Source: Eledone cirrhosa (taxonomy: Eukaryota). From it: a stretch of 64,000 bases of DNA. The notes below the pieces were generated by a model. The model saw nothing but the letters and a program-made list of their open reading frames with translations, had not been told where the DNA came from and did no database searches. Both the position numbers and the translations under genes were made by a program. The stretch's first letter is position 1, and each line of letters begins with the position of its first letter. The stretch is taken from contig OZ024749.1 in NCBI GenBank assembly GCA_964016885.1, positions 27,714,001-27,778,000 of the forward strand, read 5' to 3'. Below are positions 36,142-61,962 of this stretch, in pieces.

Positions 36142-36181
<40 letters not shown>

Positions 36182-36577
36182 TTCTATTTAAATTGTTGGG
36201 ATACAACAAGCAAATATTTTTATAACTGATATAAAGCACTCAACAAATTATTGGAGTAAAAATACGATATATTAACAAATGGAAACTATATTTATAAAAC
36301 CATATTTATTTCATTATACATATTTCAAGGACACCAAGTTAAATTATGGTGTGCTTTCATCAGATAAAATATAATATAGAGCAGTTTTATAACTATCCGG
36401 GAGCTTCCAACAGAAATGGTCGCATTCTTTAAGGGTATGTCAATATTTATTTATAAAACTGCTCTATATTATATTTTATCTGATGAAAGCACACCATAAT
36501 TTAACTTGGTGTCCTTGAAATATGTATAATGAAATAAATATGGTTTTATAAATATAGTTTCCATTTGTTAATATATC

Positions 36578-36613
<36 letters not shown>

Positions 36614-37440
36614 GACGTAAAATAAGAAAATTTAAAAAATTAAAAATTAACTTACTAAAATGTTCACTCCAATTGCGTTACGTAACTATATTTATTCCCT
36701 TACAGAAACTAATTAGTTGGAGTGAAAATTTTAGTAAGTAAGTTAATTTTTAATATTTTCTTATTTTACGTCTTTCATATAATTGTTCTGCATCCCCCTG
36801 CATAGAACCACAAAGGTACTAAGACATAAGATATATATTTGCTAGCATGGGTATACATCTGTATACATATGTTGGTAGATATACTAATTCTCTATATTTA
36901 TCTCCAAATTATTTGTTGAGCAAAACTTGCCAAAATTTACTGCTATGGTTCATGGTAGTAGTTAGGCTCTTGTCGTAATACCACCCCACTCCTCATTGAT
37001 TAACCTCAGTGTCACGTGATTGATTCTTTAGAATTTGCCACTGATCAAGTAGGCAGTGAATTTTTTCAGTGCCCTGGAATTTAGTCCCCACTAGCTTTAT
37101 TCCATCCACTGAATTATTATTTTTATATGGGTTCCTAGTGTCCGCGCATTGCCTGGGAACTTAGCTGAGAATAGACTCCCTGATGACGTAAGGACTTCTC
37201 TATAGTTGCATTACGTAACTATATTTATTCCCTTACAGAAACTAATTAGTTGGAGTGAAAATTTTAGTAAGTAAGTTAATTTTAGTAAGTAAGTTAATTT
37301 TTAATTTTTAAAATTTTCTTATTTTACGTCTTTCATATAATTGTTCTGCACCCCCCCTGCATAGAACCACAAAGGTACTAAGACATAACATATATATTTG
37401 CTAGCATGGGTATACATCTGTATACATATGTTGGTAGATA

Positions 37441-37502
<62 letters not shown>

Positions 37503-39706
37503 CAAAGGTAAACAATATATAGCTCAATTTGTATGTGGAGAATTACCTATGATAGTATATAGTTGCCAAATAGAATTAGCTCAATGTGTTTATATATATA
37601 TAGGAGGCACGTGGCTTAGTGATTAGAGCATTGGCCTTGCAATCGAAAGGATGGGAGTTCAATTCTCAGACTGGGCGATGTGTTGTTTCCTTGAGCAAGG
37701 TACTTTATTTCACATTGCTCCAGTTTACTCAACTGTAGAAATGAGATGATAGGGACTGGGGTCCCTATCATTCCACTGCAAAGTGGTCGTGGAGGTGCCA
37801 CAGCAAAAAAGCACCCAGCACTCACTGTAAATGAGGTTGGTGTTAGGAAGGGCATCCAGCTGTAGAAATCAAGCCAGAATCAGTTCCCATCCCACCCTTG
37901 CAAGCAGGGAAAAGTGGACGTAAAATGAAATGATGATATATATATATATATATATTGAAGACCATAAAGGCAGGTCTCGAAGAATGTGTGAACTAGATCT
38001 CATCCATGATTAATAAAAATACACCTTTCAAAACCATATTATGAGGTATATGACAAACTATTCGACTTTATAAAACATTGTGGATCTACTAGAAGCTGCT
38101 AAACTAGCGCCTCATATAATATATATCATCAAAAGAAAAGCCCTGAAGTTCTTTGGTCATATAAAAACATTCACAAAAAAATATTTCTAAAATATGTATG
38201 GAGGGTATAATTCAGGGTAAAAGAAAGAGATAGATCAAGAGATAGGTCACTTGGGCAGAAATAGTGGAAATCTGATCCCAGAATGTAGAATCTGATGTCA
38301 CAAAGGAGATGACAAAATAATATAACATGTGGCATGGCATAGTGGTTGAGAGGACCTGACCTGTCCAGTAATGTAAAATGATGATAACCAAAGGAGAGAA
38401 AACATATTTATCAATAAAAGATTGAAACAAAATCAGATATATCGAGACATGGGTGGAGATGGTGAGAGCTGGTCTCAGATTGCTGAAGCTCACAGAGGAG
38501 ATGACAAAGGACCGTGATGAATGGAGAGATGCTGTGCTGAAGAGGACCCATCCCACCCTGCAAGCAGGGAAAAGCGGACATAAAATGATGATGATGATAA
38601 TGATTGCTGGTGATTCAACCCACTTCCCACTTATAACACTGGTACACTGGTATTTATATAGCCAGCCAGACTGTTTGAAGTGGTGTTGAACACAATAAGA
38701 CTAAATGTTAAAACAAAATAATAATTCCACAGACAATTCCATCTTCCAGCTGACCTTTTGAAAACAAGTAAACAAACAATAAATAAATAAACAAATAAAT
38801 AAATAAACAAATAAATATAGAATGAATAAAACAAATGAATAAATAAATAAACAAATAAATATATAATGAATAAAAAAAAAATAGATAAAAACAAATAAAT
38901 AAATAAAAATAAATAAACAAAAAATAAATAAACAAATAAACGAAATAAACACACAACAATAACGACAAAAAACAACAAAAAATACAAACAAAGAAAAACC
39001 ACAATTGAAGCAGCTCTGGGGTGGTTTTTTTTTTTTTTTGAAAAATCAAAACAAAGTTTAAAGCCAGAAAAATATTTTCAGTTGAACTTTATAAAAGACA
39101 CTTTAAAGAAATGTTAATAATCCAACATTTGTTGTTTTGTTTTACTTGTTTTTCTTTGGCTTTTATTTGTTTTGTTGTTTGTTTTTGTTATTCTTTTGTT
39201 TTTCAGAAGACATTTCGAAATTTCAAACCCTGTTGCTTCTTCAGAAGACAGTTACAGTGGAATTGAGAAGAAAGGAGAGAGAGTGGGGAAGAAGGATTTA
39301 CATCTTCAAAGTGAAATGAAGATATGTCTTGTCAGATTAAAGTTGGTTGTTTTCAACTCACTTTAATTATAGAATCAAACAAAGAAATATCAAATATATT
39401 ATTTTTATGTTGTTATTGTTGTGGTTGTTGTTTTAAAAGATTACAATTATTGGATGATATATATTGTCTGTATCATCATCATCATCATCATCATCACTAA
39501 CATCACTGTCATCATCAGCATTGTCATAACTATCATCACCACTATTGTCATCAACATTATCGTCATCGTCATCACCACTATTATCATCATAGTGATCATA
39601 TCATCGTCATCACTAACACCACCATCATAAGCATCATCACTACTAATACCATTATCATCATCACCACTAATACAAGAGTGCGTCACATTATGTGAGCATA
39701 TGTAAT

Positions 39707-39740
<34 letters not shown>

Positions 39741-42700
39741 CGATATTAACAAATGGAAACGATATTTATAAAACCATATTTATTTCATTATACATATTTC
39801 AAGTTAAGTTATGGTGTGCTTTCATCAGATAAAATATAATATAGATCAGTTTTATAAATAAATATTGACATACCCTTAAAGAATGCAACCATTACTGTTG
39901 GAAGCTCCCGGATAGTGGAGTTGTAGCTTAATTATATTATTAGTATTGGATAAGCCATTGGGTTATGGAGAAAGATAGAGAAGGAAAGAGAGGGAAATAT
40001 AGAGAGAGAGAGGAGACAGAGAAAAGGAGAGAGAACGAAAACCTCTAAGTCATATCTTGTTGAGTTAACTTAACAATTGAGATGAAATGAATAAATAAAA
40101 TTAGAAATGTTAATAAAATTAGAAATGTTAATAATCATGAATGGAATATACATATATAATATGAGAAATTTAACCATTGTTTAAATATGATTAGATGTTT
40201 AGTTAATCAGTTAAATATTGAGATCAATATATAAAAAAATTGGGATCTATATATTAAGAAAACCATATATTATTAAAGATCTAAATATTATATAACACAT
40301 ATACACACGCAAAAATACATACATATAAATATATATACACACTTATAAAATACATATATATATCTAACTACGTATATAATATATACATACAAAACATAAA
40401 GGATTCTTTAATTTAATTTAAGATATAGGAATCTTATAAACTGTTATAATTGTTAAGATATTAAACAAAATTTATCAAATTGGATATTGCTTGGGTTATT
40501 AGTGGTATTTTGGTTAGGTTTTAAATTTCTATTATTAATTCTATTAATATTTTGCGCTAAATTTTTGGTGGAAGAATAAGTTAATTTTATAGTATGTCTA
40601 TTAAAAATTGAGTAATATCTATGTGTTCTAGGGAAGCATTTGTCAAGAGCTTTAAAGAATAGTTTAGCAATAGGGGTTTTAATATTTAATGAGAAAGGAG
40701 GAGCGAACCATAATATGTTCCTAGTTCTATTTCTTTTACTGCTTTCGGAATTAATGTAAGGTTTTCTATTATAGTTGTTAAAATTGTTACCATAGTTAAA
40801 ATTGTTACGATTATGGTTGGTTGTTATATTATTAATATAATAATAATATAACAACCAACCATAATAACCCAAGCAATATCCAATTTGATAAATGTAACTG
40901 TAGAAATAAATCTAACTGTCCGTTAAATAACAATTGCTTAGCTAAAAATATAGTATATAATTGTAATGTAAAAACTAATTTAAATTCATTTAATTATGTG
41001 GGATCCACTTCCACAGAGTTTAAATCCCGCTTCAATAATCATAAAAATTCTTTTACAGATCCAAACAAAAAATCTTCAACTTCTCTATCTAGCCTATTAT
41101 GGGATCTCAAACTAAAGAACGTTGAATATTCGTTGATTTGGAATATTTTTTCAAAAGCTACTCCTTTTAACTCCTCTTCAGAAAATTATAATCTTTGTAT
41201 AGAGGAAATATTCTTTATATTAAAGACCAAAAATTCCCTGAACTTAATAAATAATTTATTCAGTTGCTGTAGACAGATTAAACTCAACGTTTAAATATAA
41301 ATTTAAAATGTAATATATAATTAATTAATTAATTTTATTAATATATTGAACCTGTCGATAAATCATTAGATTCCTTCATCTTTTTTGACTGATTATACAC
41401 TCAAGTAAAAATAACTTTTCTTCCTAAATATAAATAAATAAAAATAAACTATTCTAGAGAAATATACTGAGAGCTCTTGAAAGGAGAAAATATTTCTTAT
41501 ATTTTTATTGTTATTGTCTGATAGCTGCTTCTATTTTCGAAAGTTTATCCTTTCAAAGTTTCTGTTTGTTTCTCTTATGGATATAATATTAAGTTAAATA
41601 TAAGTAGAAAATTTCTATACTAAATCTATTAAACATACTATTATTTTGAAATTATAACTTTTATAATGAAATTATAATATTTTAAAATTATATTGTTTTT
41701 AAAGTTATATTGTTTATAATTATATTTCCAAATCGTAATATAATTCTTTTGTATTTTAGGTACTCAATTATACTATGTACTGTATTTATATATACTTCTC
41801 TCTATATGTGTGTATTGACATACATGTACATATGTTTTATGCATATATGTCTATCTGTGTGTGTATATATATACGTGCTGCGTATCTACCTATTTGTGAG
41901 GGTACATGTATGTATGTATATGTGGGAATTGTGTATGTACATGTGCATGTATATCCATACAATTCGATTGCACTTATGTATAGTGATTATCCCAAGATTC
42001 GTGACAGATATACATATAATAACAGCCATAAATACATAACAGGTAATCTTATAAAACTTATATAAAAAAATTTTGTTTAATATCTTAACAATTCTAACAG
42101 TTTATAAGATTCCTATATCTTAAATTAAATTAAAGAATCCTTTATGTTTTGTATGTATATATTATATACGTAGTTAGATATATATATGTATTTTTGCGTG
42201 TGTATACATGTTATATAATATTTAGATCTTTAATAATATATGGATTTCTTAATATATAGATCCCAATTTTTTTATATATTGATCTCAATATTTAACTGAT
42301 TAACTAAACATCTAATCATATTTAAACAATGGTTAAATTTCTCATATTATATATGTATATTCCATTCATGATTATTAACATTTCTAATTTTATTTATTCA
42401 TTTCATCTCAATTGTTAAGTTAACTCAACAAGATATGACTTAGAGGTTTTCGTTCTCTCTCATTTTCTCTGTCTCCTCTCTCTCTCTATGTTGTTCTGTT
42501 CTTTCTCTCTTTCCTTCTCTATCTTTCTCCGTAACCCAATGGCTTATCCAATACTAATAATATAATTAAGCTACAACTCCACTATCCGGGAGCTTCCAAC
42601 AGTAATGGTTGCATTCTTTAAGGGTATGTCAATATTTATTTATAAAACTGATCTATATTATATTTTATCTGATGAAAGCACACCATAACTTAATTTGGTG

Positions 42701-42848
42701 TCCTTGAAATATGTATAATGAAATAAATATGGTTTTATAAATATAGTTTCCATTTGTTAATATCGTATTTTTACTCCAAATATTTGTTGAGTGCTTTATA
42801 TCAGTTATAAAAATATTTGCTTGTTGTATCCCAACAATTTAAATAGAA

Positions 42849-42884
<36 letters not shown>

Positions 42885-43160
42885 CATACACACACACACA
42901 TATATCGACAGTCAATCGACAAGATCCCAGACCTCATTCACTTAATGAGTGGGGTTGACTGAAGAAACAATCTTTCCATTGGACTTTCCAATTGCTAATA
43001 CTGTCTGTCGGTTGAAAATCCAAGCAGAAGGAGCAATATGAAATAAAGTGTCTTGCTCAAGGACATAACGCACCGCCCGGTCTGGGAACCAAAATCTCAA
43101 CCTCACGATTGCGAATCCAGTTCTCTAACCACTCACACGCGCGTGTGCGTGCGTGTGGTG

Positions 43161-43191
<31 letters not shown>

Positions 43192-44163
43192 TGGTGTGTA
43201 GTGTGTGTGTGTGTCTTTGTATATCATCATCATCATCATCATTTTAAGTCCGCTTTTCCCTGCTTGCAAGAGTGGGACGGGAACTGATTCTGGCTTGATT
43301 TCTACAGCTGGATGCCCTTCCTAACACCAACCTCATTTACAGTGAGTGCTGGGTGCTTTTTTGCCGCGGCACCTCCACAACCACTTTGCAGTGGAATGAT
43401 AGGGACCCCAGTCCTATCATCTCATTTCTACAGCTGAGTAAACTGGAGTAATGTGAAATAAAGTGTCTTGCTTAAGGAAACAACACATCACCCGGTCTGA
43501 GAATTGAACTCACAACCTTTCGATTGCAAGCCCAATGCTCTAACCACTAAGCCATGTGCCTCCATATATATATATGCATAAATGTGTATATCAATACACG
43601 AGTGTCTATATATATATATACATGCATGTATATTTGTATATATATTATATATATGTGTGTGTGTGTATCTGTATATATGTATGAGTGTGCATTTGTGTGT
43701 TGATACACAAGTGTATATATATATATGCCTACATTTATGTCTCTGTATGTGTGTAGATATGATATATGTGTCACAGTATGTGTATTGATACCAGAGTGTA
43801 TATATGCATACATTTATGTCTTTGTATGTATGAGTATGTAGATATGAGTGTCACAATATTTGTGTGTATGTATGTGTCTGTATCTGTGTTGATACAAGAG
43901 TGTGTATATATATGCATACATATATGTCTCTGTATCTATGAATGTGTATGTAGATATGTATGTGCCTGTCGGCATGTGTATTGATACAGGAGTGTGTATA
44001 TTTACATACATCTATGCCTCTATGTATGTATGTGTCTTTACCCAATTTTCTAAGCTATTATTTATAACCATCGACTGTTGTGACAGTTATTTCCTGCTTT
44101 GGAGGTTTCTGTCTTTAAAAAAATCACAAATTGCCTCAATTTATAAATTTTACACACACACAC

Positions 44164-44202
<39 letters not shown>

Positions 44203-44335
44203 CACACACACACATATATATATACATCTTTACAGACATATATATATATAAGGGTTAAAATACTGGAGCGTGTTGGAGTTAAACACCCTCTTCGTATTAT
44301 AGAAATGACAGTAATATATATATATATACACAGTA

Positions 44336-44376
<41 letters not shown>

Positions 44377-47300
44377 TGTATGTATAATTCCAGTAGAAAC
44401 CATTCCAGATAATTATAGACCAGCTGTTTTACTCCACAGAATCAAGATGGTTTCAAGAAGAACAAAAACAAAAAAAAAATAATCCAAAACAAAGCAAAAC
44501 CAAATTATAAAATAAAAAAAAATTGAAACAAAATATTTAAAGAGAGGTGGTGGTGGTGTTGGTGGTGATGACAGTGGTGGTGGTAATGGTGGTGGTGATG
44601 ATGGTGATGACAGTGGTGCTGGTGATGTTAATGGTGGTGGTGGTGATGATGGTAATGATGATGGTGACAGTGGTGGCGGTGGTAATGGTGATTATGGTGG
44701 TGGTGGTGGTGATAATGATGGTGGTGGTGATAATTATGGTGATGGTTGTGGCAAAGATGATACCAATGGTAGTAGCAATGGTGGTGATGATGACAGTGAT
44801 GATAATGGTGGTGGTGATGTTGGTGTTGTCACTGATGGTGGTGGTAAAAATGGTAGTGATGGTGATGATGGTATTAATGAAAAAGAAGAGAAATAGCAAA
44901 AGAAAAAGTAAGGAATGTGTGAACTACACAGATGGAGAAAAGATACGTGAACTACCACCACCACCACCACTGCCACCAACACCACCACCACCATCACCAG
45001 CACTGCCACCACCATTACCACCACTGCCACCACTACACCATAAATATTTGAATTAACAAATGTTGTTTGGATATTTCCTGCTAAATCATTACAGGATGTT
45101 AAAGAGTTAACTATTTTAACCCTTAACATGCTGTCTACCCCCTAGTATAGTAGACCAGGCATGTGAAACTGAGGGTCCCCCGAGGGCCACATGGGTCAGA
45201 TATGTGTTGTATGAGGGCCACATACGACAACTAACTGAGCACATTACAACTAATTTTTAAAATGTTATATTATGAAGATAAAACATGCCTGCGCAGTTAA
45301 AACCTTTGTGTGGGCCGCAGGTGTGCTTGTAAAGGGCCGCATCTTTGACATGCCTGTAGTAGACGATGCTAAAGACACCCAAGGACTAGGTGGTGGTAAA
45401 TTATGTCTACCACTGTAGTGGACCTGACTCTACTAAAGACACTCATGGACCAAGTAGTGGGGTTAAACTGGGTGATGGATTAAGTCTACAACTCAAGTCT
45501 TGTTATGTGTAAATGTGTGTGTGAGAGAGAGGGGGTGGGGCAGAGAGGAGAGAGAGAGAGTGACAGAGAGGGGGTGGGATTAGAAATTGTTAGTGCTAAG
45601 ACAAATTTAGTAACTTGAGGTTCATGATTTCAAACATATATGTGGAATCTATAGAATTAGTAATCAATAACTATAATATAATAGAGAGAGAGAGGGGAGA
45701 GTGAAGGAAAGTCAGAGAGAGACAATTACAGATTTTGGTTAAAGAATGTAAAAGATATGTTATAATGTCTTAGACAATTATATATATGTATGTATATATA
45801 TCATCATCATATATATATATAGAGAGAGATATGAGAAATGAATAAATATATATATGGTCAATATTTTAAGATAATTTGATGTATTTCGGCAGCTGAGTTT
45901 TCAAAGTAATCTGCAGGGAAAACTGGAGAAAAAGTGTGGTGGGAGAAGGGGGGAGGGATAGGTGGAGTTTATTCGAGAATAATGAAGAGGAGGATGAGAA
46001 GTATAGGTGAAGGTTATAGGAGAATAGCTAGGAAGAGAGCTACTACTACATCTATACTGTAACCTTGAAGATAGAACAGCTGAAAATGTTTGGCACATAT
46101 AAAAGAAAAAAAAAAATACATTAACCCTTTGGTTCTAAGAAATAAAACCACTTGTTTTAGAGGCTCCTTGATACAAACCCTCTTAAAACCAGCTCATATT
46201 TTATAAACAAAATCACCTATTTTAGAGGGCTCCTTGATACCAACCTTTCTAAAACTGGCTCAGGTTGTAAGACACAAAATCACCTATTTTAGAGGGCTCC
46301 TTGATACCAATCTACCTAGACTAGCTCAGGTTAATTAAATGAAACCACCTATTTTAAAGGGATCATTGATACCAACCCATCTAAAAGTGGTTCAGGTTTT
46401 ATGAAATAGAACCACCTATTTTAAAGGACTCCTTGATACCAATCCTCTTAAAACCGGCTTAGGTTTTATGAACTAGAACCATCTATTTTGAAAGGTTCTT
46501 TGCTTATAACCCATCTAAAACTAACTCTGGTTTTATGAAACAAAACCACCAATTTTAAAGGGTTGCTATTAAAATTTAAATCTTTCAAGATAATTTTATA
46601 TATGGAGCATATGTTACGGTATCACCTTAGTAATGAAATAATAAATCATTTTAGTAAATCTCTCAAAATTATCAATTAATTGAAATAGAGTGTATTTCAT
46701 TAAACACTTGGGTTAATAAAAAAAGTTAGCCTTGCCTCTCTTTTGAAAGATGGCTTCACCAAAGAATATTAGATGTCAGGAAAACAGAAGTGAAGGCAGG
46801 AGTGTAGCCTCTACCTTTATGACTGTGGATAGGAATTGGTTTTGTAATTCATCATCATCACAATCACCATCATCATTACCATCACCATAATTACCATCAT
46901 CATCATCATCACCACCATCATTATCATTATCACCATCATTATTGTTTAACCTCTTTGTTATATTTCTAATGAAATACTTCGTAATTCATACCAAATGTAG
47001 AAAATAACTGTAACAACAGTTGATAGCTATAAATAATAGTTTAGAACATTGGTTAAAATAACCGCTATAGATGGAAAAAAGTGACCAGCAACAGCTACAG
47101 AGAAGCTGATTTTCTAAGCTATTATTTCTAGCAATCAACTAAGGTTAGTTATTTTCTAAATTTGGGATTCCATCATCTAAGAATTTCAAATCTACCCAAT
47201 GATGTGATAGTTTAATTTCGAAATATTTTATATTTTATATTTGAATTAATTAACAAAAAACTTGGCAAGGATTTACTAAAATTATAATTTCACTAAGAAA

Positions 47301-48605
47301 AGTGGTTGACATTTTACCAAACAAAGGGTTGGGAGGACCCCCAGTTGTGTCAAAGATTTGAAACCTCTCCTGTGCACTTGGTGGAACTTGAGATGGTACA
47401 TAAGCAAGGCACAGATACCTGGCCTGTCTGGGAGATCAGTAGCACCACTTCTATACTTACCTGGTCTATATAGTCCTGTTCAACCCTTGCTAGCAGGGAA
47501 AATGGATGTTAAAATGATGACAATTTTCCTGTGCACTCAGTGGAATGTGCGACCGCACATAAATGAGATACAAATCCCTGGCCTATCTGGGAGATCAGTG
47601 GCTCAGCTTCTGTACTGACTTGGTCTATGTAGACCTGTCCAACCCATGCTAGCAGGGAAAGTAGACGTTGAAATGATGATGATGGTATTTGTAATATTAC
47701 AAAATGTTTCTTTTATAAAATTATATTGCAAGATTTTAATTTAAGTAGGAAGCCATTAAAATCGGCATGGTTTTGTTTCATAGAAATAAAGACAATTTCG
47801 GGTGGGTCGATGCCAAAAGGGTTAAGGGTGGTGAACTGGCAAAATCCTGTTACAGAAGTGTGATGTTAATGTACATGAATGATGGAGCATGGATGAGCTG
47901 AGAGAAAAATATGGGGCATAAGAGGGACAAGAGACAGTGGTGTAATAAAGACTGCACTGGTACAGACATGTGATGTGTGTAGGTGATGATTGTTGGGTGA
48001 AGAAGAGGAAGACAAAGGAAGACTACCTAGGCAGAAGTGGTCAGAGTTGATATCAAAAGCCCCTGACCCCTCACAGAGAAGATGACAAAGTAATGCAACA
48101 ATCAAGTGGAGACAGGCTGTGTAGGAAAAGACACATCCAACCCATGCAGGCTTGGGAAAAACGGACATAAAAAAGATGATGATGATGACGATGATAGTAC
48201 ATTGGACAAAATCCTTTGCGGCATTTATTCCACTAGGAGGAGGCAGGAGGGTTAGGAAGAGGCATGAGGGGAAGTAGAAAATGTACTTACTTTCATGTCA
48301 GGATATAAAGCAAACAGATTGTGTCGTTCTTCCTGCCTTGCTTTAGCCAGTGATGTGTCAGTTTCTCTGGAATACTAAACAGAAGGGAAAAAAATCAGTG
48401 GATACATATATACACGTCTATGTGTATACACACACACACATACATAGATAGATAGATACACAAACATATACATACACACACAGACACATATATATATACA
48501 TAAATATGCACAATGTGTGAGTTTATATATATATATATATACCATGTCTGGAATTTGCCATTGAAACAGCAAGCAAGACCTCACCCATCAGGCCCTGACC
48601 CTCAA

Positions 48606-48654
<49 letters not shown>

Positions 48655-49341
48655 AAAAAATGGGGAGAAGAATACTGCAGGTTGCACATGGATAACATGT
48701 TATAAAATGAGTCCCTCATCAGTGATTTGCCAACGATCATAGATATTTCATTGCATTAAAAATCATATACCTCACGTTGGTGCAATAATAACTAAATTAA
48801 GTTATTAGGACAATTAAAACGCGTAAAGCGAGTGAGACAAGTAACAACAAAGAGGAAATATTATGTTTAGACAACAGAACATGTATATAAGATACAGGCG
48901 TCCTGTCGAATATATGACAGTATTTAATTAGCTCAATGCTTGAAAGCAGAGCCATTATATGGAACAAAAACAAAGAGCGCTTACATCATCAATTAATCTT
49001 TATTTGCTGACCAGTGTTTCGTCCTTGCATAATTGCAGGACTCATCAGAGCGTTATAAAGAGGAATTAGATCAATAGTATAAACTCTACCGACCTATATC
49101 ACAAGAACGATCCATATGGAGCACAGAGGACTAAGAAGAGTGGGGTGTTTGGACGAACACCCCACTCTTCTTAGTCCTCTGTGCTACATATGGATTGTTC
49201 TTGTGAAATAGGTCGGTAGAGTTTATACTATTGATCTAATTCCTCTTTATAACGCTCTGATGAGTCCTGCAATTATGCAAGGACGAAACACTGTCAGCAA
49301 ATAAAGATTAATTGATGATGTAAGCGCTCTTTGTTTTTGTT

Positions 49342-49379
<38 letters not shown>

Positions 49380-49389
49380 ATAAAAACGA

Positions 49390-49458
<69 letters not shown>

Positions 49459-49966
49459 TACACATGCACACTATATATATATTGCCAAAAAGTGCATGTG
49501 GCTTATTTAACAAACCATATTCTTTGCTTTAACTTAGCAGCACATACTAACACACGCACACAGACATTCACACTCACGACGAACAAATATTTGAGTATAC
49601 ATGATAGGCTGGTCATGCCACTATTCAGTCTAAATGGATATCTGTATTGTAAACAAATAGATGTTATTGATATATATCTCTTGTGTGAAATGACTGCTTA
49701 ACCAGAAGTCAATTCTACTACAAAACAAACTAGCTCTGCAATGATACACTCTCACATGAATTTATATATACTATATATATATACACACACACACACTTCT
49801 ACAAAACATATATGATACACAGTTTTGTCACTTTATATATACTATATATACATACTTTATACTTCTACAAAGCATATATACATAGTTATGTGACTTTATA
49901 TATACTATATATACACACTTTACATATCTACAAAACATATTTAAAACAGTTTTGTTTCTTTATATA

Positions 49967-50006
<40 letters not shown>

Positions 50007-51343
50007 TTTACACTTCTACCAAACACATGTATTTCTCTATTGGCCAGTTGTAAAGCCTATTGTTACATAAATTATCAGCCAATCAAGAGTGGTGATTTAA
50101 AAGCCCACATGTTAATATGTTTGTTCTAGGCAGAGGTTATAGAAATTCATCAATATAATATTTATTGTTCTGAGACTTTGCTAGACTATATTGGCTATGG
50201 CTGGGATTATTGCAGTATTTTATTTTTGGTTGTACACAACTGTGAGCGAGTGATACAAAACTATGTACAAAAAGCAACATGTGACTTTTATAGAAGCCAA
50301 AGACTGAAGCCAGAATATTATAAACTCAAAAAATGCACGATATATGTGCTCTCTTCACAACAATATGTAATATATATGTGTGTGTGTGTGTATTAAAGCA
50401 AATGTATGTTTGTTGATATATATCTCTCTGCCTCTCTTCACATCCATTGCTCCCTCCTCTCACTCTCCCCAGCTCCCATCATGCCCACACATGCTGTTTT
50501 CCTTTCTAACCTCCTTACCAACAACCAGAATGTAGCTGCCTATCACTATCTTGCTCTCCCTTCAGTGAAATGTTAATACATGAGAGAGAGAGAGATAGAG
50601 AGAGACTAAGTAGAGTACTTACTTTAACCAGCTCAGGGTGCATACTGTTTTCAAGACCCAATCTGTGATTGTCTGACTTGGTAGGTGTTGGACATTCTTC
50701 TGGAATGAAGGCAAAGGCAGTGGTAAATAAACAGGAATTATTGTTTAATAACAAAAACAATGGCAACTATCATTATGTACAACTATCATTATAACAACAA
50801 CAACAACCACAGTAATGTTAACTACAACAACAACTACAACAGTATCATGTTGGTTTTGTAAAACAAACAAGACAAGGCAGTATTGATAACTATATGTTGT
50901 ATAGCACAGAAAAACTGATCATTTGTACAGGTTGTTCAGTAAATCAACTGTGTACCTTGATATCTTGTGTGTCTTTTATACATATGAGACGTCCTAACAT
51001 AATATTTGCTGAATCTTGTCTGTCCATCCATCTACACCCATACACACACATATATATATATATGTATATATAATAAAGAGTGGGAATGATGTATCAAAAC
51101 AATGTCATACACCAATTAACTATATATATATATAAACATATATATATACATATACATATACATACACATATGAAAAAATAATAATCATCATAGTTCAATA
51201 CATTAATACTACTATGACTGGAAATTTACAAATTCGATTCAACTCTGAACTGTCTTTCGCCAATCTTGATGTGGATAAAATTACATTAAAGCTTTAAATA
51301 TCTGATTGACTTATACAGTTGTATCATCAACTCATATAATCTA

Positions 51344-51381
<38 letters not shown>

Positions 51382-52706
51382 GCTGGTGATATGAGAAAAA
51401 AGCACCCGGTCCACTGGTGACAATGAAAAAAACATTCAGTCCACACTGCAAATTGGTTGGTGTTAAGAAGTGCATCCAGCCATTGAAGCCAAACCAAAAT
51501 ACAGATCTGTATGAGCATGATATGGACACCTAACCTGTGACATAGCCTGTCTAACCCATGCAAGCACCTAACCTGTGACATAGTCTGTCTAACCCATGCA
51601 AGCACATAAGGTGGACATTAAACAATGATGACGACAGGGTGTTTTTTTTTTAAATTGATATCATGAGATGTAAATATCTCAGAAAATAGAAAGTTTAGGA
51701 CAACGAGACTTCGCAGGCTTAATATTGAGCAACATAAGATTTATTCCTCAAAATTTGTCAAAACTATAACACTAATTCACAATAATTTCTTCCTCTTCTT
51801 GAGTCATCCCTCTTTCGAAGGTGAAGCATTTGTTTTGCTTTTTCTAATGGCTAGAATATATGTGACTCACCACAACTGCAAACTCATAGATTTCTCAGCT
51901 AACTGGAGCAGTTGTGCCAACCCATTGTCGAATAAATAGTTGATCATCTGCAAAGTTACTGGTGTTCATGAGAGCGAGGTCATCACATGAGCTACTGTTT
52001 ACTATGAGACAAGGATGATTTTTGTTGAGGCTTACTCCTCTAGATCCAACCTGTTCAGCTAAACTATCTTATAATAGCCATATCAGGGGCGCCTCATGTA
52101 GGATGTGGCTTTTTACCACACAGGTCAGTCTTCGAACTGAGAGAGGCTAGGTGTTCAGCTTGAATGAGCATATATTGCATGTCATCAGTTCACTGAGTGG
52201 CACAAGCATGCCATAAAAGACCATCCAGTAGCAACCAGAATTCACAATATATAGTGGTAGTTTCTGGGATATCTACATTTCAAGTGATATCTAAATTTTT
52301 GAAACACCCTGTATATAGTTAAAACAACTTTTCTACAATGTAATTGCAATTTAGTTTCAACATAAGTTCTCTGATCAAGTTGTTTATTAGACTAACTAAT
52401 ACAACCGCGAAAGTGAAAGAAGTTTACTGTCAATACCCGAACGTTCTGTTGAAGCCTGGGAACTGGTTTCGTTAGCGTTAATAACTGCCTTAAATGCTGT
52501 CATCCAGTCAACTAGCTCTGCTTCATTCTCTGCTGCCAATAAATAGGAACGACGATCCTGCATTTGGAGTTCAAAGCAGTGTTTACCTTTCTTGGTATGC
52601 TGGAATAGATTTAAAAAATCAGTTAAAAACTACTAACTACTACTACTACTAACTACTATATATGTATGTATGTATAAATATGTGTGTATATAAATGTATA
52701 TAAATG

Positions 52707-52782
<76 letters not shown>

Positions 52783-52823
52783 CCCACCCTTGCAAGCAGG
52801 GAAAAGCGGACGTAAAATGATGA

Positions 52824-52879
<56 letters not shown>

Positions 52880-55800
52880 ATATATATATGTGTGCGTATA
52901 TAATATACATACATCCCATGCTAGCATGGAAAGCGGTTGTTAAACAATGATGATGTTATGTGTGTGTGTTTATACAAGGAGAGGAGAGTCCCCCGTTATC
53001 CTACAAAGGATGGGACTGGCTGATAAACTGAATCAATATTTGGTAGCCAACATTCTTTAGTTGTATCAAAGGCTAAACAACTTCTCTTCTGTTGGTGATG
53101 AAACATAAAATGTACCCAGTACACTCTGTAAGGTGATAGTGCTTTTGCCATGATAACATACACCCAGTACACTTTATTAAACAGTAGTGTTGATGCCATA
53201 ATAAAATACACCCAGTACACTATGTAAAGCAATTGTCATAAGGAAGGGTATCCAACCATAGAAATTACACTAAAATATGGAATGTATGAGCAAAGCGTCG
53301 TTTTCTGACCATGTCTTGTCTCAGATTATAATGACCTATCCAATCCATGCTCATATGATGATGATGATATATCTGTTTTCACTAGGTAGGAAATGTGTGA
53401 CAAGAAACATATATAAGTATAGATATGTTGATGATGATGACAAGTCAGTGTAGATATGATGATGATGATGACATAAGCCAATATAGATATATTGTTGTTG
53501 TTGATGATGATGGTGATGCAATGAGTCAGTATAGATATGTTGTTAAATATTTACAGATCATTATTAAACCTCCTCCTCTATATAAGAGGTCAATCAATAA
53601 CTGATCAATACCCAATCAATAAGGTGTTGGCCAACAAGCTGTTCAGTTTGTGTGAGTATTCTATCACTGATACTATATTACAGAGGTTCCCAATATTTTC
53701 ACTACCAGTGACCCCCTTTTAATATAAACAGATTCTCCCATGAGCCAGCCCACAATAATTACTCCCTTTCCTAATTGTTATACAACAAGAATAACATTAT
53801 AACAAAGAACAGGAACAAATGTTTATATTTCAAGAAGAATAGATACACAATAATGTGTGTACATTATGTTTTTAAGTAAGGACTTGATATTTTCACTCCA
53901 TCACAGCTCCGGTACTATGGGCATGTGGTTAGAATGTCTCAGGAAAGAATCACTGGAGCTTGGAGATCAGAGAGTCACTCCAAGTAGAGCTGCTTCTTCT
54001 CTGAATTGAGATATCCGAGCTAAGATACTATGGATATGTGGTTAGAATGTCTTAGGAAAGAATCACTGGACAAAGAACTCTCTGACAGTTTCTTTCCCTG
54101 CCAATGTAATGGGGATAAACAACGACAACAACAATACCACCATAAGTGTATATCTGCATGTGTTGTCAATTATAATTAAATGGCCTAGTGGTAAGGGTGT
54201 TGAACTTATGAAAATAATGTCATGGGTTTGATTCCTAGACTGGGTTGTGTGTTGTGATCTTGAGTGAAACACTTCATTTCACATTGCTCCAGCATACTCA
54301 GCTGAAAATGAGTACCAGCAGCAATAGCTGGGTGTTTAACCTTGTGATGGACTGGTATCCTGTCCAAGGGGGAGTCTTGTACTGTCAGTCACTTCAAGCC
54401 ACGGAAACTGGGGATAAGCACCAGCCGGATGAGCCTCCAGGCTCGAAACAGACTTTAGAGTGTTAGACCGGATTGATTTTGTACCGGTTAGAGATGTAGT
54501 AAGGACAAATAAAATGATTTACCTTAATTACATCTGATGCCGTCTCCAGGTAAATTGCACCTTTTGTTTCAGACTTTTTCTCTGCTTTATAAAATTCCAA
54601 AATGTAGGTGAAGTCTGTTTGTTGTTTCAGGCAAAAATACCGGCGCTTAAATTGCTGAAAACCAAGAGAAAACAAGAGATTAAAAAAACCCCCCAAAACA
54701 GTAGAAAGAACAAAGCATGAAAGGAACTGAAGAGAAAGTAATAGTAGTAGACCCCTGGGTTTGCACCTGGAAAGTTACTTTCTAAGATGCAAGCATTGGC
54801 AAGGAGTATTAAGGAAGACCAGTAGTTGCCTGTACATGCTAGTCTCTCACACTCTACTCCACCAATGTTCAAGGGAAAGGCAATGACCGATACATCTTGG
54901 CAACAGTATCATCAAAACTAATTTTTTTGCTAGATGAGTGGACTGGTGTAACGTGAAATAAAGTGTCTTGCTGAAGGACACAATATGCCACCCAGTTAAG
55001 GAACCGAACCCACAACTTTATGATCATGAGCCAAATGCCCTAATAATTAAGCCTTCTATAGGGTCACAAATGCCTAAACAACTAAGCCAGATGGGTCACT
55101 TGAGGAGATTTGCCAATGTAGCAGTGTGGTTAGTATTAAAATTGGCTCATACATCACTTGACCAGACCAATGAATGTTTTACAGGTGTCTCTCACAATTG
55201 AGGATCACTTCGATGTATGTAACATGCTTTCAAAAGGCTTTAAGTACCCATATAGTCATGAGCAGACACAGATCCTCTCTTGACCCTTCACTCCTTACTG
55301 TGATAGCTAGAGGCAGAGAGGGCTGTACCAACACTGGGTTGATACTTCATTAACCACAAAAGGGTGAATGGCAAAGCAGACCTCGGTGGGATTTGAACTC
55401 AGAACACAGAAAGCTGGAACAAATACTGGAATGGATGCTATGTGATGCCTCACCAACTCTCCTAATCAAACACCACCTTTAATCAATATATAACAGTGAA
55501 CTATCTGTCTATAGGGTCACCTAAACTGATCAAACAATATATAACAGTCAACCATCTGCCTATTATCTAGGGATGTATTATAAACCCTGAAATTGTAGCA
55601 TTGACAGTGTGGTAAAAGTAAATTAAATCGACACCAATGCGTTACAGGTATTTTATTTTATCAACTCCATAACCACAACCACACTAAGAGATGAAAGAGA
55701 AACAACTTACCCTGGTAAAACTAATTATGTTATCCTTTTGCCCTTCAGGACCTTTGTATAACCAACCTTCCTTTGTGATAGAACATACCGTACTCCGGTT

Positions 55801-58265
55801 GAGGGTAGAATCCTGAAAAAATAAAGAGATAGGGGTTATGTAATTCAATTAGGGATTAATGATAAATAGAAAGGTGCCGTGTATATCAATCAGAGATCAA
55901 TAACAGATAGATATATACTGAGTATATCAATCAAGAATCAATATATGATAGGTGCTGTGTAAATCAATAAACAGACAGATACGTGCTGTGTATATCAATC
56001 AGAACTCATCAATTTATAGCTTAGTAGTGTCTTGTGTATGTATAGATATGTCTATATGTGTGTATGTATATATGTGTATATGCATATATATATGTGTATG
56101 AATGTATGTATGTATGTATGTGTGAATCATCAAACAGCCTAGCTGGTGAATTAACCAAGTAGTTCAGTTTTCCACAGACAAGATATAACTCTTCTCAGGT
56201 AGAAACAGTATGACACAATATATGACAATGACAGCTACAGCCCATCTTGCATTATAATGTAAATCGTTGAGTATTCCGCAGACACATATACCTCCCTTAA
56301 CATAATTCTTCTCAGGGAGAATCTGTACGATGACAAGGCTGTACCTCCGAATTACCGGTACAATCCACCTGAAGGGCTTCCAAACAGATTCTGTCTACCC
56401 AATTCCACTCACAAGTCTTGGGTTGGTCTGAGACAATGGTAAAGACATTTGCTCATTGTATGGACCGTATCTGTAACTTAATGGTTCAGTCATGTCAAAC
56501 AATGTGTCATGATGAGAATTATATTAAGAATAAATGGTGTATGTTGGGGGGGGGGGGGATAAGAATGCTCGGTCACTTACACACTAATTCTATAAATAAA
56601 TGGTTCAATTGATTGAATGATTAGAAAAACTTATTTGTTGAAATCCACAAGTGTCCATTTTATTTTATTTCACACCAAACACACATTATGCACGCACACA
56701 CACACACATATATGTATATATATATATATATATATACATAAAACATGCACACATACCACAATACTCATCACACCACAATACACATCATACAAACACATCA
56801 CACACATACATTATATACTACAAACACACATCGAACATTGCGTCACAGTCACCACAATACACATCACATCACACCACACACATCACATCACACCACACAC
56901 ACACACTCACATCAAACATAACATCACACCACACACACTCATCAAACATCACATCACACACACTCACACCATATCAAACCACACACACTCACCACATCAA
57001 ATTATCTACCAGCATAGATGAACAACTTCCTCAACTACACAATTTCATTACCACAATCATTACCCTCACCACCACCATCATCGTCACCACCACCACTATT
57101 AGTATCATCCCCATCATTATCACCACCACTCATTACCATTACCATCATCACCATCATCACCATCACCACTTTCACCTTCACCATCCCCACTACCACCACC
57201 ATCATCACTATCATCACCCCTACTATCACAATCATCGTCATCGCCCTGATCACCATCACCACTACAATCAACACCAATATCCCCATCACCACTACAATCA
57301 ACACCAATATCCCCATCACCACTACAATCAACACCAATATCCCCATCACCACTACAATCAACACCAATATCCCCATCACCACTACAATCAACACCAATAT
57401 CACCATCACCACTACAATCAACACCAATATCACCATCACCACCACAATCAACACCAATATCCCCATCACCACCACAATCAACACCAATATCCCCATCACC
57501 ACTACAATCAACACCAATATCCCCATCACCACTACAACCATCACCACCACAATCAACACCAATATCACCATCACCACCACAATCAACACCAATATCACCA
57601 TCACCACTACAATCAACACCAATATCACCATCACCACTACAACCATCACCGCCACAACCATCACAACCAAAACAACCATCACCACCACAACCATCACCAC
57701 CACAACCATCACCATCACAATCACCGCCACCACAGCCATCACCACTACAACCATCACCACCACAACCATCACCCCTACAGTTTTTTTTATGTTCCCACTG
57801 CCATATTAGCATGGGTTAACAACTGACTCCTCTTCATTACTGTATCTGTCCAGCTGTCCCCTTCTTTGTTTCTACACATTTAATACATGGATATAGAATT
57901 AATAAGGGGAAGAGAAACACATAAATCAATTAAATAAATAGAGAGAGAGTGGGAGTTAACAGTTTAGACAGGCAAGACTATTTTTATCTCTCGATATTTG
58001 CGAAAGTAGAGTGTGCATGTGTATGTATATATGTATATATATATTCATTGGGAGTTACTAGTTTAGACTAGTAGGACCATTTTCAGCTAAGTACTTGATG
58101 CTTGGAAAAGTAGAGTGTCTGTATTGTAAATAGTTAGTGCTCCACCGTTTCAATCGCAAGTGGATAATCTATATCATAATAAGAGCACTGCACACTTTAT
58201 ATAGAGAGGGGGAGCACCAAGTAAGAGATATATACATAGATAGGGAGAGAAAAGAGAACACTGTG

Positions 58266-58320
<55 letters not shown>

Positions 58321-58331
58321 ATATATATATA

Positions 58332-58389
<58 letters not shown>

Positions 58390-58414
58390 CATATATATAT
58401 GTGTATATATGTGC

Positions 58415-58469
<55 letters not shown>

Positions 58470-59155
58470 TATATAAATCGGGAAAGAAGAGTGACACAGT
58501 TTGCTATACAAAAAAGGTTTTTAATCTCATTGCTGACAATTGTTTCTCTGAACTGGTAGGTCTAGAGATTGCTATCCGCTTATTTTCACGTTACTCAATC
58601 GCCAATACAAAGTTATAACCAGTCAGTTCATCGGAGCTTGCGAGAATGAAGAGATTATACAGGCATGAAAAGAATATACAGGCTACTATATGCAGAAGTA
58701 ATGGCATTCAGTTAGAACAATAACAACAATATCAACAATGCTACCAATAAATTATTTGAAATAATCACAACATCAATCGAGGTGGGAAGTATAGTATATC
58801 TAAGATTTTAGCATGTAAAACTAGCTGACATGAGGCAGATGTATAAAATTGACATGTAAAAACTGCCGTAGGGTGTATTATATGAAGTGTAAAGATAAGC
58901 TGGGGTGTTTTTAAAAAATGTAGGTCAGGTGGCCGTAATAGTCGGTTTTTATCTGACCGATGAAGGATTTATCACTGTAGTGGAATTTGTGTGGTCTATA
59001 TTAGATGAGAAGCCTGTCTATCTTTCTCATCCTCAATAACATACATGTATAAGACAACACTAACAAAGCTAGATAATGGGCAAATTAATAGAGGTTAAGG
59101 AGGTAATATATATATATATACATACATTTATATACACACACACATGCACACAAAC

Positions 59156-59186
<31 letters not shown>

Positions 59187-60010
59187 TATACATACATACA
59201 TACATAGATACATACAAAGAGAAAACATGCTGACTATAATTATAGCAAGAGAAAGGTAAAGTTCTGTTGTAGTAGTATTTTGAAATGTTCTTCGATTTAG
59301 GATCAAGTGCTGACAGCAGCTGAGAAGAGATAAGTTTATGGGTTGATGAGTTACTTACAGACATTAGTCTGGTATAGAACTAAGAAGGCTAGAATGTACT
59401 TAGTGATTATATTTCTGTGGTGATTCGTGCAGGGTAGTGGGTATCCTAGTTGAAAGCTAAGTTACGTCGGTTCGATTCATGGAGGTTTAAATCTTATGAA
59501 TTCAGTGGCGATCCTGTGTCTGCAGAAGATAGATCTTTCTAACTTGTTGTTAAGTAGCTTTATACATTTCTAAGGATATACAGTAGTTCTAGATCACACA
59601 GCCCACAGTGGGACATACCTGTACTGTAGGTTTTAGCAGCCGACAACCTCGACCAGTTGATAGTGTAGCTAGCGTTGTTGTCCTTCAGTTCCCATATTTT
59701 TTTGGCGAGGGTTGAAGAACCCATAAGTGCACGATTTTTCATCGAGTGCCTGTGCACATACCATCTTTTTTTAAAAGTACCCGCGGTGGATCCAATGTAA
59801 TGCCATGTGGAGTTGTCTGAGTTGACCGTACACATGTACATCTATATAAATATATATATGTGTGTGTGTGTATATATATATGTATATATGTGTGTGTGTG
59901 TATATATATATGTATATATGTGTGTATATATATGTATATGTGTGTATATATATGTATATGTGTGTATATATATATATGTATATACATATATGTATATGTA
60001 TATATATATA

Positions 60011-60042
<32 letters not shown>

Positions 60043-61962
60043 ATATATAAGATCAAAAGATGGTTAAAAGAGTTCCATGTATTTTATTATGCGCATTTCA
60101 AAAACAAATATCATCATGCAATAACATTTGTGTTTTCATCAGCTGATGAAAACACAAATGTTATTGCATGATGATATTTGTTTTTTAAATGCGCATAATA
60201 AAATACATGGAACTCTTTTAACCATCTTTTGATCTTATATATTATGTATACTCCAGTCCTACAAACTGTAGAGTGCTTCTTATCCGATATCTGCATTGCT
60301 TTATTGTACTACAATAAAAATCACCTCCTACATACACACACACAGAAGGGAAGAGACAGAGAAATGGATTGGTGGAGGAAACATAGACAAACAGATGGAA
60401 ATATTCACCTCATCCTTGTCATCTGTGTCAACATCGATTTCATACACCTGTTCAGGTAAACTCTCCAGTTTCTTTTTGCTAAAAAGTACAAAAAAACAAA
60501 ACAAAAAATAAACAGAAACCATAAAAGATGACACTAAAAATATTTCATTGTTGTTTTACTGGTTCTACACAGCAGGTAGTGAGATATCAATGTTATACTA
60601 TTGTGAGGTATACTATATATATATATTGTACATTTTATATCATATTGGGATACTATATATTGAAATATGAATGTTATATGAGATATATCATATGTCATAT
60701 CATTAAGATATATCATATTAAGATATATTCTATATGTTACATCATATTAAGATATATCAGATATATTATATCATATTTAGATATATCATATATTCTATTA
60801 TCCTACTGAGATATTTCAGAAATGTTATACCATATTAAGATATATCATATATGTTATATGATATTAAGATATAATAGCAATGTTACATATGCCATCAACA
60901 TTTAACATCTGCCTTCCCTGCTAGCAAGAGTTGGATGGGTCACCACAGACCTAGTCAGTACTTAGAGCGACAGACCTCATAGATATCGAGATATGTCAAA
61001 TATATATCAATATAGGGAAGAAAGGACACTCAAGTCCTGACAGAACCTCCTAATTGCTGGTGACATGAAGAATGCACCCAGTCCATGCTGTAAAGTGGTT
61101 GGTGATAAGATATGTTTCTTTATTAGCCACAGGGGCACAAAAGAAGGGGACAAATACAAAGGGGGAAGTTTACATACAATAAAAACGTGTAAAATGCTAT
61201 CACAAAAGCAATTTAAAAATTAATCGATTTTCCCCAATAGGGGGAGACATTTCATATGGGTAACACATACCCCCGAAAATATGTGCAACCCTCATCTCCA
61301 GGAGTACGAAGAGTTTGTACTCCTTTCCTTTCCTTCTCTTTTTCTTCAACCTACAGGCTGATATAGAGAGAAGGCCCATTCACTTGGGTCATTCTCGCCA
61401 CTTTCACCCACCTTTCATAAAACTTGCTGGGGTACAGCACCTCTCTCTCCATCCTGATTCTTCTTCCAAAGTGGTATTTGAAAAAAAGAATCAGTTGTTG
61501 GCCGGAGAGAAAGGTGTGATAAGATAGGCACCCAGACAGTAAAAACATGCCAAATATTTTAAAAAGCACAACCTATACTATACATACTAATAGTATGTCT
61601 GACCCATGCCAGCAAGGAAGGTAAGTAAATGGATGTTAATATGATGTTAATGATTATTATATCCTCATCATTTTTATATATCCACTTTTCTATGTTAGCA
61701 TGGGTTGGACAGGAAGATTTGAGGCAATGTTTTACAGCTAGATGCCCTTCCTGATACCAACACTTTTAGTTGCTTTTTACGACATGTAGAGATACAGTGG
61801 TACCTATACTAAAAACTGGTACACACACACAGACATAAAACACATACACACATACGTGTGTGTATAAATAATTGAGAAGCAGCATTTGGAGTTACTTAGG
61901 TAATTGCTGATAACTTGTGTGTGTGTGTGCATGTGTGAGTGTATATGTGTGTGTGTGTGTGT

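What the first reader, a model, noticed from the sequence alone, without database searches (positions are those of the whole stretch)
36180..60244. Recurrent palindromes with outward-facing hammerhead ribozymes, from unrelated sequence families, inside one gene's introns
Seen: four foldbacks from three unrelated families (36263-36580 and 39741-42851; 48961-49343; 60041-60244) carry hammerhead cores on both arms in mirror image, and each abuts a (TA)n tract. Known: Penelope-like elements (PLEs) carry minimal type-I hammerheads in their terminal repeats and often show inverted 5' truncations. Inference: these may be a class of non-autonomous palindromic PLE derivatives. Whichever strand is transcribed, the RNA contains one sense ribozyme plus its own antisense, so long-hairpin folding would compete with self-cleavage. 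That could protect the host pre-mRNA or act as a co-transcriptional or ADAR-sensitive switch.
Basis: partly seen in the sequence, partly recalled or inferred. Interest (0 to 1): 0.75.

Follow-up and report, generated by a model that had tools for sequence, protein, structure and literature searches.

The report
Twin-primed Penelope retroelement palindromes
These four mirror-image stretches in the introns of a DOCK signalling gene are real, ordinary footprints of very abundant Penelope-like jumping genes, each likely built anew at its landing site by copying one RNA onto both ends of a DNA cut, rather than a ribozyme switch used by the host gene.

Summary
The four foldbacks are real and lie in introns of a DOCK9/10/11-like gene. 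They are head-to-head insertions of Penelope-like elements (PLEs). Families A and C have intact autonomous parents with Hydra-clade motifs, and they are related. Inverted copy plus tail, (TA)n targets and opposed minimal hammerheads are all published. They are not a replicating palindrome family: identical junctions recur in thousands, but across many subfamily haplotypes, with no shared arm differences. Both arms share one template (3% discordance against 35% shuffled). One arm ends at the short start and one at the tail end in 76 of 80 and 25 of 29 pairs. Junctions pile up at one inferred RNA 5' end, with hints of a cap-derived G. This supports two reverse transcriptases priming on one RNA from both ends of a cut. 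About one such foldback per 58 kb occurs genome-wide, so a host switch is unsupported. This scan has already noted the same pattern many times on other DNA.

The parts
36180..36395 (-). Family A tail-bearing (long-end) arm; unpaired tail 36180-36262; intact minimal type I hammerhead with core at 36363
36392..36580 (+). Family A short-end arm, starting at the inferred RNA 5' end (equivalent to 42581); intact hammerhead, core at 36480
39741..40857 (-). Family A short-end arm running through the 3' UTR and, after an internal deletion, into ORF sequence; hammerhead at 39828 has a 9-nt stem II deletion
40836..41294 (+). C-terminal GIY-YIG endonuclease remnant with CxCx5C linker of a 5'-truncated Hydra-type PLE
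40858..42851 (+). Family A long-end arm: endonuclease, 3' UTR, pLTR (inferred RNA start 42581, hammerhead core 42669, short end about 42768, tail 42769-42851)
48860..49152 (-). Family B long-end arm; unpaired tail about 48860-48960; hammerhead core 49048 with one extra base in stem III
49153..49345 (+). Family B short-end arm; intact minimal hammerhead, core 49257; followed by (TA)n
60041..60142 (-). Family C short-end arm, truncated at the hammerhead core (no stem I 5' strand)
60143..60333 (+). Family C long-end arm; hammerhead lacks stem I 5' strand and has GAAA changed to TAAA; unpaired tail about 60246-60333
16668..16856 (-). Solo family A short-end copy starting at the inferred RNA 5' end; intact hammerhead (core 16769) in the sense of the host pre-mRNA, with no antisense partner nearby
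62341..62514 (-). Host gene exon (DOCK C/D N-terminal domain), upstream of all four foldbacks
   Evidence: PF11878 E 2e-14
52399..52629 (-). Host gene exon-containing frame (PH domain end)
   Evidence: PF00169 E 3.5e-07
32458..32682 (-). Host gene exon-containing frame, downstream of all four foldbacks
   Evidence: DOCK6 chain 9vm2_A E 2.7e-13

Best explanation
Each foldback is a single head-to-head insertion of a Penelope-like retroelement, likely made anew at its site when two reverse transcriptases prime from the two ends of a cut in or near (TA)n and copy the same RNA from its two fixed start points. Shown: full-length parents read pLTR (hammerhead, short end, tail, long end), ORF, 3' UTR, pLTR; foldbacks carry one short and one long end; both arms share one haplotype; junctions cluster at one position at the 5' edge of the pLTR. 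Inferred: that position is the capped RNA start; priming in the RNA's 5' pLTR gives the 200-500 bp palindromes and priming in a 3' pLTR gives longer ones such as 39741-42851; the short-end enzyme usually leads and the tail-end enzyme follows or stalls; the two cDNA 3' ends are joined by 0-8 nt microhomology or short inserts. Outward-facing hammerheads follow from this geometry. In the host pre-mRNA the antisense arm is made first and is predicted to bury the sense ribozyme, so the inserts would be silent dsRNA hairpins without a host role.
For: Autonomous parents with open ORFs of 742 aa (family A) and about 800 aa (family C) and the layout above. End coupling: 76 long+short of 80 distinct family C head-to-head pairs (2 long+long, 2 long+other) and 25 of 29 family A pairs; independent 50:50 choice would give half (P 3e-18 and 1e-4). 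One template: arms disagree at 44 of 1,323 subfamily-diagnostic positions (3.3%) against a mean of 35%, minimum 26%, in 500 shuffles. Junction hotspots: 1,931 matches (control 0) in family C and 91 (control 1) in family A, against 40 and 73 for two internal windows of family C (patterns differ in length, so the ratio is rough). Of 30 loci (26 distinct places) with an arm starting at that point, 27 had an inverted partner, none ran past the point, and in all 10 unequal cases the short-end arm was complete and the tail-end arm stopped early; 3 partners lay wholly in the tail and share no sequence with the other arm, so they cannot be fold-back copies. Cap hint: of the first 100 of 4,277 arms with a non-template base before the start, 43 have G (genome G about 17%); by hand count 17 of these are not explained by the partner arm. 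The commonest family A junction (15 of 50 listed) is what two cap-ended cDNAs annealing over three bases with a central mismatch would give. In vitro, a PLE protein cuts and extends both strands, starts at two sites that bound the tail, and is predicted to be a dimer (PMC11167929, parts 1-2 read).
Against: Sequence only; no RNA 5'-end data and no activity test. The tail-end arm reached further 5' than the short-end arm in 8 of 21 unequal family C pairs (13 the other way, 49 equal, 6 undetermined), so the leading order is not strict. Two family C and two family A pairs are long+long. 26 of the 43 G cases and the commonest family A junction can also be read without a cap. Shared haplotypes could partly reflect gene conversion between arms. 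Samples were chosen by junction pattern, mostly from one chromosome. Target-site duplications were seen in only 4 of 67 short palindromes, so a single cut is not shown for most. No parent ORF was found for family B.
Confidence: 0.72

Rival explanations
1. One cDNA folds back on itself (or an antisense RNA self-primes, as proposed in PMC3846280), the inverted arm is a copy of the first strand, and the endonuclease resolves the intermediate to leave the tail on one side.
For: It predicts identical haplotypes in both arms and palindromic junctions. Published as the favoured reading of junction palindromes (PMC3846280 discussion) and of the tail (PMC8557442 passages).
Against: In 10 of 10 unequal pairs the further-reaching arm lacks the tail while the shorter arm has it, and 3 partners consist of tail only; a fold-back copy cannot contain sequence absent from its template. 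The commonest junctions have loops of 0-2 nt, too tight for self-priming. Some junctions have a non-template G on both arms.
Confidence: 0.12
2. A non-autonomous palindromic PLE derivative is transcribed and re-inserted as one unit.
For: Identical junctions do recur: 19 of 50 listed family C and 15 of 50 listed family A hotspot matches; the units are small and numerous.
Against: Sixteen sequenced loci with the identical family C junction fall in about 11 diagnostic haplotypes, one shared with full-length elements; no arm asymmetry recurs in more than 3 of 80 loci. The window's B and C junctions are unique. Family B is mostly solo, variably truncated copies.
Confidence: 0.06
3. The palindromes were kept or co-opted by the host because the antisense arm silences the ribozyme, or as an ADAR-sensitive switch in the DOCK pre-mRNA.
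For: Hairpins of -159 to -357 kcal/mol are predicted to bury the sense core. The window holds 4 in 64 kb against 10 in 580 kb of sampled genome (Poisson P 0.026).
Against: The window was picked for this cluster, among some 47,000 such windows. Three of eight ribozymes are broken. An intact unprotected sense copy sits in the same gene. Minimal PLE hammerheads show little or no monomer activity (PMC4209133, PMC11167929). The inserts are young (arms 95-99% identical).
Confidence: 0.06
4. The foldbacks are chimeric assembly artefacts.
For: No read or contig piece spanned the one junction laid (inconclusive).
Against: Arms differ by substitutions and indels; ends fall at two fixed biological positions; all 10 core-bearing inverted repeats in the random sample face outward and none inward; head-to-head joints of other family A copies landing at 36391-36394 appear in contigs and in a few raw reads of another sample.
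Confidence: 0.03

Closest known systems
Insertion architecture of endonuclease-positive PLEs: inverted 5'-truncated copy plus optional tail (PMC8557442 Fig. 2 passage; PMC3846280)
   Same: Head-to-head inverted pLTRs, tail on one side only, variable 5' truncation, partial tandems, microsatellite targets.
   Different: Tails here are 83-100 nt rather than 30-40 nt; pLTR-only palindromes number in the thousands per family; long+short coupling and single-template origin are counted here.
Hydra-clade PLEs (Craig et al. 2021, PMC8557442)
   Same: C-terminal GIY-YIG, DKT motif, CxCx5C linker, no CCHH, CxxC and CxH near the end, hammerheads, (TA)n targets.
   Different: RWK reads RWR, RWT or RWI; elements are about 4-4.6 kb rather than under 3 kb; no tree was built; family B is unplaced.
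[quoted passage not shown]
   Same: Palindromic 15.2-16.2 segment, long stem II, short stem I; that paper already reports dual motifs 100-700 bp apart on opposite strands, related to truncated PLEs.
   Different: Stem I can extend to 8 bp in family A; no activity measured here.
Anolis Poseidon element PAc in vitro (Frangieh et al. 2024, PMC11167929)
   Same: Two internal reverse-transcription starts bounding the tail, both DNA strands cut and extended, AT-rich targets, hammerhead not needed for insertion.
   Different: In the parts read, the paper does not show that one insertion uses both starts or explain the inverted copy; the genomic pairs here suggest that link.
Animal non-LTR retrozymes (bioRxiv 10.64898/2026.07.22.740005, part 1 read; PMC7229834, listing only)
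   Same: Small non-coding PLE-derived units with type I hammerheads.
   Different: Retrozymes are head-to-tail arrays thought to use circular RNA; these are two head-to-head stubs of an autonomous element.

Membership tests
EN+ Penelope-like elements | Single ORF with RT and C-terminal GIY-YIG endonuclease | tested here: met
   Families A and C: open ORFs of 742 and about 800 aa with RT-type motifs and GIY-YIG-type end; atlas look-alikes carry GIY-YIG, RVT_1 and HTH_animal on part of their members; Pfam itself gave no hit on the whole ORFs at E 0.01
EN+ Penelope-like elements | pLTRs, direct or inverted, with optional tail | tested here: met
   for families A, B and C
EN+ Penelope-like elements | Hammerhead motif in the pLTR | tested here: met
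   Rfam gathering search found no hammerhead, as expected for minimal forms
EN+ Penelope-like elements | Target-site duplication | tested here: inconclusive
   4 of 67 short family C palindromes show a complex direct repeat of 8-11 nt; most flanks are (TA)n
EN+ Penelope-like elements (family B) | Linked RT-endonuclease ORF | tested here: inconclusive
   No such ORF within 1.5 kb in 6 long copies; longer flanks not fetched
Hydra clade | DKT motif, CxCx5C linker, no CCHH, terminal CxxC and CxH | tested here: met
   against the description in PMC8557442
Hydra clade | RWK motif and length under 3 kb | tested here: inconclusive
   RWR/RWT/RWI; elements about 4-4.6 kb
Hydra clade | Placement in the RT phylogeny | not tested
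   No reference proteins were fetched
Neptune clade | CCHH motif inside GIY-YIG and CX2-5CxxC linker | tested here: not met
   One cysteine only between the two motif halves; linker is CxCx5C. My early notes said Neptune; corrected
Non-autonomous palindromic element (MITE-like or SINE-like unit) | Copies descend from one palindromic source: shared junction plus shared arm variants | tested here: not met
Non-LTR retrozymes | Head-to-tail monomers each with a hammerhead | tested here: not met
   No tandem units at the four loci
Active hammerhead ribozyme | Self-cleavage at the NUH site | not testable with these tools
   Indirect genomic test inconclusive: 9 of 50 listed junctions sit exactly at the predicted cut, but in the control 3 at the cut compare with 2 to 4 at neighbouring self-complementary positions

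The most novel reading that the evidence does not exclude
PLE insertion is obligately two-ended: one protein dimer on one capped RNA primes both ends of a double-strand cut at the two starts that bound the tail, the short-end subunit leading. This would explain the inverted pLTR and the one-sided tail together, and would mean that an active element's own mRNA 5' end seeds some 25,000-95,000 perfect dsRNA hairpins in this genome without any non-autonomous family.
Probability: 0.6. Interest if true: 0.65.

Novelty: new member of a known kind. Interest (0 to 1): 0.38.

Why it matters
The object is ordinary: a published PLE insertion pattern. What has value is the population of copies. How PLEs form inverted repeats and a one-sided tail is called unresolved in PMC8557442 and PMC11167929. 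The counts here (long+short coupling, one template, a fixed 5' stop, tail-only partners) favour two-ended priming over fold-back and give exact predictions for an existing in vitro system. They also show that recurrence of an identical palindrome does not prove a palindromic element, and that this genome carries a very large load of young intronic dsRNA hairpins, which bears on RNA editing and silencing.

Tried and rejected
Rfam found no hammerhead in the window, only two tRNA-like hits. A DNA search with the 98-base family C arm returned nothing, not even itself; patterns were used instead. Pfam and PDB gave no hit on full-length ORFs. No RNA holder was listed for the locus; this is no evidence on expression. 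Laying contigs and reads on 35900-36600 gave no piece across the junction or an empty site, so locus-level artefact and polymorphism tests remain open. The idea that junctions mark hammerhead cleavage in vivo was tested and left inconclusive. Neptune assignment rejected on motifs. The 13-kb CA-rich array was first read as a mucin exon; the host gene is on the minus strand and the array lies in an intron. Intron enrichment could not be tested without annotation. The alignment had two rows mis-sliced and was used only for the layout. No paper describing two-ended priming or cap-derived G for PLEs appeared in five searches; subscription papers and supplements were not seen, including Fig. S2 of PMC11167929 and the Hydra family files of PMC8557442, which may bear on novelty.
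Full report
Setting. The window is G000:C9:27714001-27778000 of a 3.0-Gb, TA-rich animal assembly; size and repeat make-up recall an octopus (recalled, not tested). Collinear minus-strand exons of a DOCK9/10/11-like gene run across it: DOCK_C-D_N at 62341-62514, PH at 52399-52629 and DOCK-C2 at 26156-26350, and frames at 33215-33514 and 32458-32682 that match DOCK6. All four foldbacks lie between these exons.

Observation. Self-alignment confirms the four inverted repeats, with arms 132/133, 224/237, 184/188 and 92/93 identical. Each arm carries a CTGANGA core facing outward. Family A has a minimal type I hammerhead with a self-complementary stem III segment and up to 8 bp of stem I. Family C has the same layout. 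Family B has a 1-nt loop III. Three ribozymes are broken: 39828(-) lost 9 nt of stem II, and both arms at 60142/60143 lost the 5' strand of stem I, the plus arm also G12.

Identity. 39741-42851 contains a GIY-YIG remnant. A protein search of the genome gave 58,692 first-look candidates, with open frames up to 751 aa among the 150 scored. Twenty fetched regions include near-complete elements of family A (742 aa) and family C (about 800 aa), 53% identical to each other. They read pLTR, ORF about 50-80 nt after the tail, 3' UTR, pLTR. Their motifs fit the Hydra clade as described in PMC8557442 (passages), not Neptune; no tree was built. Family A gave 1,228 candidates, family B 948, family C 15,714 exact 25-mer matches. 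Family B has the same short end, tail and long end, but no parent ORF was found.

Two ends, always paired. One search found 90 head-to-head family C pairs; 10 were the same place fetched twice and were dropped, and loci where no pair passed the filter were not counted. Of 80, 76 have one short and one long end, 2 are long+long, 2 long+other. Family A gave 25 of 29, with 2 long+long and 2 short+other. Loci were chosen by junction or core patterns, not by end type. 154 of 158 classified family C ends have at least 12 nt of TA close by.

One template, made anew. At 19 subfamily-diagnostic sites the two arms of a locus disagree at 44 of 1,323 comparisons; shuffled pairs disagree at 35% (minimum 26% in 500). 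One long+long pair (L144) has two different haplotypes, as expected for separate insertions. Junctions pile up at one point at the 5' edge of the pLTR: 1,931 matches in family C (19 of 50 listed identical) and 91 in family A (15 of 50 listed identical). Recurrence reflects a fixed stop, not descent from one palindrome. The window's B and C junctions are unique; the A junction at 36392 joins a complete short-end arm to an early-stopping tail arm.

The stop is probably the capped RNA start (inferred). Among the first 100 of 4,277 arms with a non-template base before it, 43 have G, 41 T, 16 A (hand count). 26 of the G cases can be explained by the partner arm and most T cases by TA microhomology; 17 G cases are not explained (rough P 0.004). 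In 30 such loci (26 places), 27 had an inverted partner, none passed the stop, and in all 10 unequal cases the short-end arm was complete while the tail-end arm stopped early: 3 in the tail, 3 at the short start, 4 further on. Three loci were solo short-end copies, like 16668-16856 in the window. In the larger set the order was 13 to 8 (the sets overlap in three loci), so it is a tendency. Tail-only partners cannot be fold-back copies of a tail-less strand.

Mechanism. These data fit two reverse transcriptases on one RNA, primed by the two ends of a cut, starting at the two sites that bound the tail, with end joining of the cDNA 3' ends. PMC11167929 (parts 1 and 2 of 4 read) shows in vitro cutting and extension of both strands, two internal starts that define the tail, a predicted dimer, and a protein-assisted hammerhead not needed for insertion. 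PMC3846280 (passages and discussion) proposed self-priming on an antisense template; PMC8557442 (passages) attributes the tail to endonuclease resolution and calls for mechanistic work. PMC4209133 (parts 1 and 2 of 4) already notes paired minimal hammerheads 100-700 bp apart on opposite strands and no detectable monomer cleavage.

Host role. Folding predicts hairpins of -211, -357 and -159 kcal/mol on the pre-mRNA strand, against about -12 for an isolated ribozyme, with the sense core paired. The antisense arm is transcribed first on either strand. But 58 evenly spaced 10-kb regions held 79 inverted repeats, 10 with an outward core and none with an inward one, about 52,000 per genome (25,000-95,000; regions favour large chromosomes). 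Four in a selected window is a mild excess (P 0.026 before selection). An intact unpaired sense ribozyme in the same gene, and broken ribozymes in two of the four foldbacks, argue against protection or a switch. Editing was not testable.

Artefact. One search gave no piece across the 36392 junction, but joints of other family A copies land at 36391-36394 in contigs and in a few raw reads. Arm divergence, fixed ends and polarity make a chimera unlikely.

Ribozyme cleavage in vivo. Nine of 50 listed lie exactly there, 5 one base off, and 19 at the stem III palindrome. In a wider control, 3 at the cut compare with 2 to 4 at neighbouring self-complementary sites (35 of 143 matches expected by chance). 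Inconclusive.

Verdict. Real, well explained, known in architecture: new Hydra-type PLE families and their insertion products. My reading was set before the look-up, which showed 191 similar notes in at least 29 genomes, and 351 fitting notes in this genome; those are unchecked and not counted as support. The value lies in the counted evidence for two-ended priming. Interest 0.38.

Noticed in passing
window 36610-36850 and 37170-37409: A further repeat family with short end and tail; the first copy is itself a head-to-head foldback placed directly beside the family A palindrome, the second has a CTGATGA core followed by a non-standard GTAA.
   Followed up: partly
window 59480-59841 (-): Endonuclease remnant of another Hydra-type PLE family (30% identical to family A), just left of the TA tract that holds the family C palindrome.
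   Followed up: partly
window 63615-63998 (-): Frame resembling the restriction-like endonuclease of a non-LTR retrotransposon (recalled motif; no Pfam hit).
   Followed up: no
window 2955-16339: 13.4-kb array of 77-90 bp CA-rich units with strong strand skew inside a DOCK intron; reads as Thr/His-rich on the plus strand.
   Followed up: no
window 35958-36028, 43497-43554, 37592-37924 and 43243-43575: tRNA-like heads of probable SINEs; two 334-bp copies, 94% identical, lie inverted around the 39741-42851 element and could form another long duplex.
   Followed up: no
window 17164-17316, 25895-25964, 30770-30950: Older decayed palindromes (76-85% identity) without a recognisable hammerhead core.
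   Followed up: no
L139:1400-2000: A family C palindrome flanked on both sides by the same 22-nt non-repetitive stretch embedded in (TA)n, a possible long target-site duplication.
   Followed up: no
L241-L298: Many short tail-bearing palindromes beside (TA)n from families with no hammerhead core (for example L256, L262, L275, L286, L299): the same insertion geometry without a ribozyme.
   Followed up: partly
L163, L184, L210, L235, L239: Junctions with short tandem re-copies of the first 8-25 nt of the RNA start, suggesting repeated template jumps at the 5' end.
   Followed up: no
run X5 (organism B): Contigs of a related organism cover the flanking repeats but almost none of family A at 90% identity, so this family may have expanded after the split.
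   Followed up: no
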